IMG/VR virus record: IMGVR_UViG_2513237361_000012
Span: 1-64,000 of that record
Length of the DNA: 64,000 bases
Source of the DNA: a virus
Taxonomy: Duplodnaviria > Heunggongvirae > Uroviricota > Caudoviricetes
Strand: one strand, 5' to 3'
Made by a program: the position numbers and the translations under genes. Positions within the stretch are counted from its first letter, which is position 1, and each line of letters opens with the position of its first letter. The notes below the pieces were generated by a model. The model ran no database searches, was not told where the DNA came from, and saw only the letters and a program-made list of their open reading frames with translations. Of the stretch, positions 62,622 to 63,799 are shown piece by piece.

Positions 62622-63799
62622 GCACAAAATTTTATACCCTGCTGACGGATATTGGCGCGGCGAAACTTGCCAGCGCCGCCGCGCTCGGTGTGCCGCTAAA
62701 AATTACCCATATGGCGGTGGGCGATGGTGGCGGAACATTGCCGACGCCAGACTCAAAGCAGACTGTACTGGTAAATGAGAAACGCCGGGCTGCGCTGAAT
62801 ATGCTCTATATCGACCCGCAGAACAGCAGCCAGATTATTGCTGAACAGGTGATCCCTGAAAACGAGGGCGGTTGGTGGATACGTGAAGTGGGCCTGTTTG
62901 ATGAGTCCGGAGCATTGATTGCCGTGGGCAACTGCCCGGAAAGCTATAAGCCGCAACTGGCTGAAGGCAGCGGGCGCACCCAGACCGTGCGCATGGTGCT
63001 GATTACCAGCAGTACGGACAATATCACCCTGAAAATCGACCCTGCTGTAGTGCTGGCAACCCGTAAATACGTGGATGATGAAGTCCTGGAATTAAAGCTG
63101 TATGTGGATGACCAGATGAGAAACCACATTGCCGCACAAGATCCTCATACCCAGTATGCGCAGAAACATAATCCGACATTTACCGGAGAACCAAAAGCGC
63201 CGACGCCTGCAGCAGGAAATAACACCACGCGGATTGCGACCACTGAGTTTGTTCAGGCCGCTATTACTGCTCTGATTAACGGTGCGCCAGCCACGCTGGA
63301 CACACTGAAAGAAATTGCCGCAGCCATTAACAATGACCCGAAATTCAGTACCACCATTAACAATGCGCTGGCACTAAAAGCACCGCTGTCGAGTCCGGCA
63401 CTCACCGGAACGCCAACAGCACCTACTGCGGCACAGTCGGTCAACAATACACAGATTGCCACTACAGCTTTTGTGAAATCAGCGATTGCAGCAATGGTGG
63501 GTTCTGCACCTGCGGCACTGGATACACTGAACGAACTGGCGGCGGCGCTGGGGAATGACCCGAACTTTGCCACGACAATGCTTAATGCACTGGCAGGTAA
63601 ACAACCGCTGGACAATACGCTGACTAATTTGAGTGGAAAGGATGTAGCTGGTCTTCTCACATACCTTGGTTTGGGAGAAGCTGTTGCAGTGCCACAGCGT
63701 CCTGGCTTTTCGGAGAAAAGTCTTTCAGGCCAAGCTGCTTACGATAGGCATCCCACCAACGGGAAAGAAGCTGGTAACGTCCGGCGGCTGTTGATTTGA
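62618..63799 (+). CDS. H: Tail fiber protein H-like, truncated with a foreign 3' end
   Basis: N-terminal about 360 aa match P2/186 gpH pattern incl. two conserved repeat blocks; last about 35 codons read through antisense lambdoid R sequence. Confidence 0.7.
   Translation: MSTKFYTLLTDIGAAKLASAAALGVPLKITHMAVGDGGGTLPTPDSKQTVLVNEKRRAALNMLYIDPQNSSQIIAEQVIPENEGGWWIREVGLFDESGALIAVGNCPESYKPQLAEGSGRTQTVRMVLITSSTDNITLKIDPAVVLATRKYVDDEVLELKLYVDDQMRNHIAAQDPHTQYAQKHNPTFTGEPKAPTPAAGNNTTRIATTEFVQAAITALINGAPATLDTLKEIAAAINNDPKFSTTINNALALKAPLSSPALTGTPTAPTAAQSVNNTQIATTAFVKSAIAAMVGSAPAALDTLNELAAALGNDPNFATTMLNALAGKQPLDNTLTNLSGKDVAGLLTYLGLGEAVAVPQRPGFSEKSLSGQAAYDRHPTNGKEAGNVRRLLI

What the first reader, a model, noticed from the sequence alone, without database searches (positions are those of the whole stretch)
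63250..63620. Same conserved tail-fibre block shared at nucleotide level by both prophages
The block encoding ...LDTLNELAAALGNDPNFATT...AGKQPL occurs twice in the Mu-like fibre (about 2860-3130 and 4050-4320, minus strand) and in the 186-like H gene (about 63380-63620, plus strand), with long identical DNA runs such as GCGGCGCTGGGCAATGACCC. These inverted homologous segments, about 59 kb apart, are substrates for recombination between the prophages, which could swap host range or invert the intervening chromosome. The antisense ORFs at 2846-3190, 4049-4876 and 63253-63660 are artefacts of this block.
Basis: seen in the sequence. Interest (0 to 1): 0.4.

Follow-up and report, generated by a model that had tools for sequence, protein, structure and literature searches.

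The report
Conserved tail-fibre motif, not recombination hotspot
Two prophages in this Escherichia genome share a short tail-fibre protein motif that is common to hundreds of phages. Their DNA is too diverged there to recombine, so the finding is ordinary. The abrupt end of one fibre gene just after the motif is most likely an assembly artefact.

Summary
The block is real. It is a 74-codon tail-fibre module present four times: Mu-like fibre 4072-4293 and 2890-3111 (minus), and P2/186-family H gene 63170-63391 and 63392-63613 (plus).

Between the two prophages the DNA is only 77-78% identical over 124-139 nt, and 68-69% over the whole module. The longest exact run is 14 nt. The quoted 20-mer occurs once. 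In the core, codon positions 1+2 are 92-93% identical and position 3 is 46-57%, so a conserved peptide accounts for the similarity.

The same peptide occurs in 733 phage records. Lambda orf-314, a P1-like S gene and 214 mycobacteriophage records match H at the same DNA identity. None of 5,426 complete E. coli genomes holds an H/Mu-fibre chimera. The recombination reading is not supported. The antisense ORFs are shadow ORFs.

The working host-range switch in this H family is a 26-bp invertase crossover site at 63654-63679, 40 nt after the block. In the source record (Escherichia sp. TW09308, AEME01000001.1) P2-type sequence stops at 63680/63681. It is joined there to an antisense lambdoid endolysin gene. 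This is most likely a contig-concatenation artefact.

The parts
62618..63680 (+). Constant part of the P2/186-family tail-fibre gene H (codons 1-354). The ORF listed as 62618-63799 runs on into unrelated antisense DNA.
   Evidence: PF12571 Phage_tail_fib, E=7e-65, residues 1-150. 100% identical to E. coli NCTC8623 H up to 63681. 52 of 61 IMG/VR loci carry the full 1063 nt at 91-100% identity.
63170..63391 (+). Block copy Ha (74 codons; NPTFTGEP...ATLDTLKEIAAAINNDPKFSTT...LKAPLS), the diverged tandem partner of Hb
   Evidence: 58% aa and 62% nt identity to Hb.
63392..63613 (+).
   Evidence: Against the Mu copies: 65% aa and 68-69% nt. Core 37 codons: 84% aa and 77-81% nt.
63654..63679 (+). 26-bp imperfect palindrome TTCTCACATACC-TT-GGTTTGGGAGAA: left crossover site of a Din-type (Gin/Cin/Pin-like) tail-fibre inversion system
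   Evidence: It is the only match in the window, with 0 expected by chance. The identical site in NCTC8623 is paired with an inverted partner 1612 bp away, next to a Resolvase+HTH_7 serine recombinase. The segment is flipped between the two copies of that record.
63680..63681 (.). Breakpoint. P2-family sequence ends here and antisense lambdoid lysis DNA begins (AEME01000001.1 3,986,203/4). This is probably a contig join.
   Evidence: The NCTC8623 match stops at 63681 and lambdoid matches start at 63678-63681. No complete E. coli genome spans the join. 5 of 62 IMG/VR occurrences end 0-1 nt after the same base.
63681..63974 (-). 5' two-thirds of a lambda-type endolysin (R, GH24) gene, codons 1-98, read antisense to H. 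The listed ORF 63657-63974 borrows its last 7 codons and stop from the crossover site.
   Evidence: 98-99% identical to 'glycoside hydrolase family 24 protein' genes of E. coli prophages. Holin, Q, nin, P/O, cII, cro, cI and N follow in L003.
1978..5142 (-). 1054-aa tail-fibre gene of the Mu-like prophage, with an internal duplication (copies 1182 nt apart)
   Evidence: PF08400 phage_tail_N and PF03406. Self-match of 398 nt at 76.6%. Family D1, 278 nt at 79%. Mom, MuA and MuB identified.
4072..4293 (-). Block copy Mu1
   Evidence: 88% aa and 82% nt identity to Mu2.
2890..3111 (-). Block copy Mu2
2846..3190 (+). Shadow ORF antisense to Mu2 (114 aa)
   Evidence: Listed. No Pfam hit at E<=1.
4049..4876 (+). 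Shadow ORF antisense to Mu1 and to the Ala/Glu/Gln-rich stretch upstream of it (275 aa)
   Evidence: Listed. No Pfam hit. It extends about 580 nt beyond the block, so it is only partly due to the block.
63253..63660 (-). Shadow ORF antisense to Ha/Hb (135 aa)
   Evidence: Listed. No Pfam hit.

Best explanation
The block is an ancient tail-fibre shaft module of about 74 residues, conserved at the protein level. It consists of SP.LTG.PT.PT, a variable loop, ..A..FV, S.P.ALDTLNELAAALGNDP.FATT and AGKQPL. It sits between the proximal, baseplate-binding part of a fibre and its exchangeable distal part.

Both prophages inherited it independently, and each has duplicated it internally. The residual DNA similarity follows from purifying selection on the peptide, which is written in GC-rich Ala/Leu/Asp/Thr/Asn codons. 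It does not come from recent exchange. It is too short and too diverged to be a practical substrate for homologous recombination today.

In the H gene the module is the last conserved stem before a 26-bp invertase crossover site (63654-63679). Site-specific inversion at that site, not homologous recombination in the block, is what changes the distal fibre.

Shown: copy number, identities, codon-position pattern, distribution of the motif, the invertase site and its activity in a sister prophage. Inferred: the structural role as a trimer stem or joint, and the negligible recombination rate.
For: - Four copies with exact coordinates.
- Mu copies versus Hb, core: positions 1+2 are 92-93% identical, position 3 is 46-57%. 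Exact runs are 14 nt or less.
- At identical amino acids only 24-26 of 48 codons are the same, against about 18 expected if synonymous sites were random.
- tblastn finds the peptide in 733 phage records, including 375 Mycobacterium and 104 Gordonia phages and a cyanophage.
- PDB 9d93 'Tail collar fibers, gp4' (the mycobacteriophage Bxb1 tail-tip entry) aligns to it at E=5e-10.
- At DNA level the H core matches lambda orf-314 at 79%/101 nt, the P1-like RCS47 S gene at 78%/122 nt, Wphi H at 79%/126 nt, and 214 mycobacteriophage records at about 75-83%. That is the same level as Mu-like versus H inside the window.
- 0 of 5,426 E. coli genomes hold H-upstream joined to Mu-fibre-downstream.
- MEPS values and the under-500-bp recombination floor come from PMC3945230.
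- Invertase switch: one site in the window. In 62 IMG/VR occurrences, many different sequences (23 distinct 12-mers) start immediately after ...GGGAGAAG. In NCTC8623 the 1612-bp segment is present in both orientations at 100% identity, next to a Resolvase+HTH_7 gene.
Against: - Same-codon use is slightly above the random expectation (24-26 versus about 18), so a little shared synonymous signal remains.
- In two IMG/VR loci (L034, and the second hit in L054) homology to H starts exactly at the block core (query nt 888) at 78-79% in otherwise different sequence. Over evolutionary time the block edge does therefore act as a mosaic boundary.
- Phage Rad52-like recombinases recombine 800-bp, 78%-identical inverted repeats at measurable rates (PMC3945230), and a lambdoid prophage is present in this genome.
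- The structural role is not shown: the AlphaFold2 model of the block had pLDDT 48.6.
Confidence: 0.85

Rival explanations
1. One reading: the inverted blocks are live substrates for homologous recombination between the Mu-like and P2-family prophages. Recombination would swap distal fibre parts or invert the 59-kb interval.
For: Genuine homology in inverted orientation, 59,286 nt apart. Relaxed phage recombinases tolerate about 22% divergence on 800-bp substrates. The block edge coincides with a mosaic boundary in two IMG/VR loci.
Against: Only 124-160 nt at 77-78% identity, with a longest exact run of 14 nt, against a MEPS of 23-34 bp. In the cited assays recombination was below 1e-8 when less than 500 bp was shared. 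Synonymous sites are near saturation. The same DNA identity is seen to actinophage genes. No chimeras in 5,426 genomes.
Confidence: 0.05
2. The H/endolysin junction at 63680/63681 is a real rearrangement in strain TW09308. It would be an inversion or deletion joining the P2-family prophage to a lambdoid prophage, leaving H truncated and fused.
For: The junction is in the deposited record, and the 393-aa fusion ORF is called there. The sequence is continuous with no N. If contigs had simply been ordered on a reference, the P2 tail-gene contig leading into ybjL would be expected next, not a lambdoid one (inference).
Against: - The break lies exactly where the two orientations of the invertible segment diverge.
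- 4 of 62 IMG/VR occurrences end at that very base, 1 ends one base later, and 9 more end within 38-116 nt, as expected for short-read contig breaks at a flipping segment.
- The break is not at the central dinucleotide where an invertase cuts.
- The intact R gene has no quasi-site there: CACGCTCTTTAATC against GGTTTGGGAGAAGC.
- The fusion protein is on record on one contig only, and no complete E. coli genome has the junction.
- The record is a 2011-era WGS entry consisting of a single 4.81-Mb 'contig', from a species reported to carry 37 IS1414 copies.
Confidence: 0.12
3. The block similarity reflects recent gene conversion or horizontal replacement of just this segment between the two resident prophages.
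For: Same-codon use slightly exceeds the random expectation.
Against: Position-3 identity is 46-57% and there is no run above 14 nt. H is closer to phage P2 (95.7%) and to Klebsiella P2-like phages (98%) than to the resident Mu-like copies.
Confidence: 0.02

Closest known systems
Conserved tail-fibre segment shared by P2 gpH, lambda Stf (orf-401/orf-314), P1/Mu S and related fibres. This is the classical example of horizontal exchange of fibre modules: Haggard-Ljungquist et al. 1992 and Sandmeier 1994, both cited from my own knowledge. The 1992 title phrases are matched in papers found.
   Same: Same peptide motif and same position, between the proximal fibre part and the exchangeable distal part. 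Direct DNA matches to P2 (95.7%), Wphi H, lambda orf-314 and a P1-like S gene.
   Different: Nothing essential. Here it is duplicated in tandem in H, and duplicated 1182 nt apart inside an unusually long Mu-like prophage fibre.
Din-family invertible tail-fibre switches (Mu G/Gin, P1 C/Cin, e14 P/Pin, p15B Min). The family description is from my own knowledge.
   Same: A 26-bp imperfect palindromic crossover site inside the fibre gene at the constant/variable boundary. The sister prophage has an inverted partner site, two opposed distal fibre ends with tail-fibre assembly genes, and an adjacent 188-aa Resolvase+HTH_7 recombinase. Both orientations were observed.
   Different: It is carried by a P2-family prophage. 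In the window only the left site is present, because the record breaks one base after it.
Relaxed homologous recombination between phages and prophages by Rad52-like recombinases (De Paepe et al. 2014, PMC3945230)
   Different: The documented substrates are several hundred bp or contain segments above MEPS. Here there are 124-160 nt at 77% identity with runs of 14 nt or less, and no recombinant was found.
Mycobacteriophage Bxb1 'tail collar fibers, gp4' (PDB 9D93)
   Same: Its residues 194-256 align with the block core, including SAP..LDTLNELAAALG.DPNFATT (E=5e-10).
   Different: It comes from a siphovirus of an actinobacterium. Only the motif is shared, which shows that conservation is at the protein level.

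Membership tests
P2 gpH-type tail fibre (Peduoviridae) | N-terminal tail-collar fibre domain, with the gene placed after baseplate genes V, W, J and I | tested here: met
   PF12571, E=7e-65. Gene order V-W-J-I-H in L003 and L001. 95% DNA identity to P2-like Klebsiella phages over 79% of 41000-63680.
P2 gpH-type tail fibre (Peduoviridae) | Complete gene with a distal receptor-binding end and a following tail-fibre assembly gene | tested here: not met
   In the window the gene leaves P2-type sequence at 63681 and runs into an antisense endolysin gene. This is probably an assembly artefact.
Conserved fibre segment of P2 H / lambda Stf / P1-Mu S | Sequence similarity of the block to those fibre genes | tested here: met
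   P2, Wphi, lambda orf-314, P1-like RCS47/SJ46 S, and D6.
Pfam PF03406 Phage_fiber_2 repeat | The block itself matches the profile | tested here: not met
   PF03406 hits only residues 242-281 of the Mu-like fibre, upstream of the block. There is no hit in H, and no Pfam family covers the block.
Din-type invertible fibre switch | Crossover site: a 26-bp imperfect palindrome at the constant/variable boundary of the fibre gene | tested here: met
   63654-63679, unique in the window. Variable sequences begin right after it in 62 occurrences.
Din-type invertible fibre switch | Inverted partner site and adjacent small serine invertase | tested here: inconclusive
   Absent from the window, which breaks at 63681. 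Present in the 100%-identical sister prophage of NCTC8623: partner site at L001 11293, and Resolvase+HTH_7.
Din-type invertible fibre switch | Segment found in both orientations | tested here: met
   The 1612-bp segment is reverse-complemented at 100% identity between the two copies in the NCTC8623 record.
Din-type invertible fibre switch | Fis-dependent recombinational enhancer | not tested
   Not examined.
Substrate for RecA/Red homologous recombination | At least one perfectly matched segment at or above MEPS (23-34 bp) | tested here: not met
   The longest exact run between prophages is 14 nt. MEPS values are from PMC3945230.
Substrate for RecA/Red homologous recombination | Recombinant (chimeric or inverted) variants in related genomes | tested here: not met
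   0 of 5,426 complete E. coli genomes cover 80% or more of either chimeric probe. Megablast sensitivity only, and E. marmotae genomes were not available as a set.

The most novel reading that the evidence does not exclude
The abrupt join at 63680/63681 is real, not an assembly artefact. In E. marmotae TW09308 the P2-family fibre gene H would have been broken exactly at the outer edge of its invertase crossover site and fused to a lambdoid prophage's endolysin gene. That would record a large prophage-to-prophage rearrangement, perhaps triggered by aberrant invertase activity.
Probability: 0.1. Interest if true: 0.4.

Novelty: already known. Interest (0 to 1): 0.1.

Why it matters
It matters little biologically. 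Conserved segments in tail-fibre genes and their role as module boundaries have been textbook phage mosaicism since the early 1990s. This instance shows no sign of recent exchange.

The practical value lies in annotation:
- DNA similarity of about 77% in this motif should not be read as recent recombination, because E. coli phage genes match actinophage genes at the same level.
- The 393-aa 'H' ORF and the 105-aa 'lysozyme' ORF in AEME01000001.1 are probably chimeric products of a contig join at a flipping invertible segment.
- The three antisense ORFs should not be annotated as genes.

Tried and rejected
- Exact-match scans of GTDB representative genomes, for the junction and for the 41-mer ending at the site, found nothing.
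- The original genome paper (Luo et al. 2011, PMC3084108) is not held, so the assembly method of AEME01000001.1 could not be read.
- Invertase-mediated recombination with a quasi-site in the endolysin gene was rejected. The intact R gene has no resemblance to a half-site at that position, and the join is 13 nt away from the central dinucleotide.
- A scan of IMG/VR for the endolysin side of the junction gave one hit, an intact R gene. It says nothing about contig ends.
- Pfam and NCBIfam give no family for the block itself.
- AlphaFold2 on the block, with the four window copies as alignment, gave pLDDT 48.6. The predicted helices (25-37, 40-55, 57-68) are not trustworthy for a trimeric fibre.
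- Reading a mycobacteriophage baseplate paper for the structural role of the motif gave nothing specific.
- I ran no further search on locating the rest of the P2-family prophage in the record. Look-ups are by exact sequence of cluster representatives and were unlikely to land on this record.

Full report
WHERE THE WINDOW COMES FROM

The 393-aa ORF 62618-63799 is on record on exactly one contig: AEME01000001.1 (GCA_000208565.2, 4,809,826 bp). A paper lists that accession as Escherichia sp. TW09308. TW09308 is a freshwater clade V strain, now assigned to E. marmotae. Window coordinate + 3,922,523 gives the record coordinate.

Layout of the window:
- The 3' part of ybjI lies at 1-318 (minus).
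- A Mu-like prophage runs from about 400 to 36,000. It carries Mom at 433-1170, MuB at 31925-32878 and MuA at 32954-35041.
- The 5' part of ybjI, then ybjJ and rcdA, follow.
- A P2/186-family prophage starts at the integrase (39928-41103) and runs on the plus strand through gpA, portal, terminase, capsid, lysis and baseplate genes to H at 62618.

THE OBSERVATION

The block exists. It is a 74-codon module and there are four copies, not three:
- Mu1 at 4072-4293 (minus).
- Mu2 at 2890-3111 (minus).
- Ha at 63170-63391 (plus).
- Hb at 63392-63613 (plus).

The similarity is not chance. blastn gives E = 6e-29 and 1e-24. The repeat finder reports inverted arms of 139 nt (78%) and 124 nt (77%), 59,286 and 60,468 nt apart.

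The claim of long identical DNA runs is wrong. The longest exact runs between a Mu copy and H are 14 and 12 nt. The quoted 20-mer occurs once (4124, minus), and H has a one-mismatch variant at 63542.

WHAT THE SIMILARITY MEANS

Mu copies versus Hb:

| Region | aa identity | nt identity | positions 1+2 | position 3 |
|---|---|---|---|---|
| Whole module (74 codons) | 65% | 68-69% | 78% | 46-50% |
| Core (37 codons) | 84% | 77-81% | 92-93% | 46-57% |

Where the amino acid is the same, only 24-26 of 48 codons are the same. About 18 would be expected if synonymous sites were random under the window's own codon usage. This is the signature of an old, protein-constrained motif, not of recent DNA exchange.

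The peptide is found by tblastn in 733 phage records. These include 375 Mycobacterium and 104 Gordonia phages, a cyanophage, and Burkholderia, Vibrio and Pseudomonas phages. It also aligns to a solved chain, 'Tail collar fibers, gp4' of PDB 9d93, at E=5e-10. That entry is the mycobacteriophage Bxb1 tail tip.

The most telling control is at DNA level. The H core matches the following at about the same identity as the two resident prophages match each other:
- lambda orf-314: 79% over 101 nt.
- a P1-like S gene: 78% over 122 nt.
- Wphi H: 79% over 126 nt.
- 214 mycobacteriophage records: about 75-83% over 55-90 nt.

H itself is 95.7% identical to phage P2 and 98% identical to P2-like Klebsiella phages in this stretch.

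THE RECOMBINATION READING

- De Paepe et al. 2014 (PMC3945230) give a minimal efficient pairing segment of 31-34 bp for RecA and 23-27 bp for Red-beta.
- They report a 10,000-fold drop for 4% divergence on plasmids.
- They report recombination below 1e-8 when a prophage locus shared less than 500 bp with the phage.
- Here the substrate is 124-160 nt at 77% identity, with no run above 14 nt.

I also probed 5,426 complete E. coli genomes with two chimeric queries: H upstream of the block joined to Mu-fibre sequence downstream of block 1 or block 2. No genome covered 80% or more of either query.

Rad52-like phage recombinases do recombine 78%-identical 800-bp repeats. In two IMG/VR loci, homology to H begins exactly at the block core in otherwise different sequence. 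Over evolutionary time the block edge is therefore a mosaic boundary. That is the classical, already published view of this segment (Haggard-Ljungquist 1992 and Sandmeier 1994, from my own knowledge).

THE ANTISENSE ORFS

ORFs 2846-3190, 4049-4876 and 63253-63660 exist and have no Pfam hit even at E<=1. All three start opposite sense-codon position 2. In that frame an antisense stop needs a sense TA. or CA. codon preceded by a T- or C-ending codon, and the block has no Tyr or His. They are shadow ORFs. The 4049-4876 ORF extends about 580 nt beyond the block into an Ala/Glu/Gln-rich stretch, so it is only partly due to the block.

WHAT ACTUALLY SWITCHES THIS FIBRE

Forty nucleotides after the block lies TTCTCACATACC-TT-GGTTTGGGAGAA (63654-63679). 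It is the only such site in the window, with 0 expected by chance.

In E. coli NCTC8623 the same P2-family prophage sits at the same chromosomal site, between rcdA and ybjL, and is 100% identical over window 60000-63681. There:
- The site has an inverted partner 1612 bp away.
- The segment holds two opposed distal fibre ends with tail-fibre assembly genes.
- A 188-aa Resolvase+HTH_7 recombinase follows.

The NCTC8623 record has an untrimmed circular overlap, so the prophage appears twice. The 1612-bp segment is reverse-complemented at 100% identity between the two copies. The segment therefore flips in culture.

In 62 occurrences of the 41-mer ending at the site in IMG/VR contigs, many different sequences (23 distinct 12-mers) begin immediately after ...GGGAGAAG. 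52 of 61 loci share the full 1063-nt constant part at 91-100% identity. The constant/variable boundary of this fibre is the crossover site, not the block.

THE BREAK AT 63680/63681

The window follows NCTC8623 through ...GGGAGAAGC and then diverges. NCTC8623 continues CAGATATG, while the window continues TGTTGCAGTGCC.

From 63681 the sequence is the antisense strand of a lambda-type endolysin gene, codons 98 to 1. It is followed by holin, Q, nin genes, P/O, cII, cro, cI and N. No complete E. coli genome spans the join, and the fusion protein is unique to this record.

I judge this about 85% likely to be a contig-concatenation artefact, for these reasons:
- The break is at the exact base where the two orientations of the flipping segment diverge. 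The next base is C in one orientation and G in the other.
- 4 of 62 IMG/VR occurrences end at that very base, one ends a base later, and nine more end within 38-116 nt. Draft assemblies habitually break there.
- The join is 13 nt from the dinucleotide an invertase would cut, and the intact R gene has no quasi-site there.
- The record is a single 4.81-Mb WGS 'contig' from 2011, in a species reported to carry 37 IS1414 copies.

Against the artefact reading: there is no N spacer, and I could not read how the record was built. If the join is an artefact, the last 40 codons of the 393-aa 'H' ORF and the last 7 codons of the 105-aa 'lysozyme' ORF are spurious.

VERDICT

The block, its copies, their orientation and the shadow ORFs are real. 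The long identical runs are not.
- The interpretation as a live recombination substrate is not supported.
- The feature is an already known conserved tail-fibre module.
- The neighbouring invertase site is the working host-range switch, and the abrupt end of H is most likely an assembly artefact.
- Interest is low.

Noticed in passing
window 63654-63681 and onward (L003 11037-21182): H leaves P2-type sequence one base after a 26-bp invertase crossover site and is joined to an antisense lambdoid endolysin gene, followed by holin, Q, nin and the immunity region. The position matches where draft contigs of the same prophage family end, so a contig join in AEME01000001.1 is the likely cause.
   Followed up: partly
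L001 (NZ_LR134234.1 4925583-4941264) and L066 (NZ_LR134234.1 1-26000): The 'complete' NCTC8623 record carries the same P2-family prophage at both record ends, which is an untrimmed circular overlap. The start copy is full of frameshifts. The 1612-bp invertible fibre segment is in opposite orientation in the two copies, giving H proteins of 463 and 528 aa.
   Followed up: yes
window 38837-39820 (-), 47871-48929 (-), 49513-51342 (+): The P2-family prophage carries anti-phage defence cargo. A PDC-S21/DUF4917 gene lies next to the integrase (E=9e-122). PD-T4-7 (E=9e-144) and a retron-type RT-Toprim I-C reverse transcriptase (E=2e-217) lie between gpA and the portal gene. NCTC8623 has reverse-transcriptase fragments at the equivalent place.
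   Followed up: partly
window 1-318 (-) and 36250-36771 (-); ends near 320-420 and 36100-36250: The Mu-like prophage is inserted in ybjI, a HAD phosphatase gene. The two halves match Hydrolase_3 profile positions 172-255 and 1-166. Both prophage ends carry repeated TTCAAGATA / TATCTTGAA motifs, probably transposase-binding sites. The exact termini and target duplication were not determined.
   Followed up: partly
window 1978-5142 (-), also 5527-6414 (-), 5087-5527 (-), 1388-1963 (-): The Mu-like prophage has no gin-type invertible segment. Instead it has a 1054-aa fibre with an internal duplication 1182 nt apart (398 nt at 76.6%). The motif D.(Y/R)D(S/R)T.GR(L/V)A(L/I).G..G(Y/F)G occurs three times along the fibre. 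A second, 295-aa fibre gene (Gp53-like_C) and two assembly or chaperone genes are also present.
   Followed up: partly
window 19601-19649 and 27334-27382: A 49-nt direct repeat (86% identity), each copy containing AAAAAAAGCCGGATTTACCGGCTTCA. It looks like a pair of related terminator hairpins inside the Mu-like prophage.
   Followed up: no
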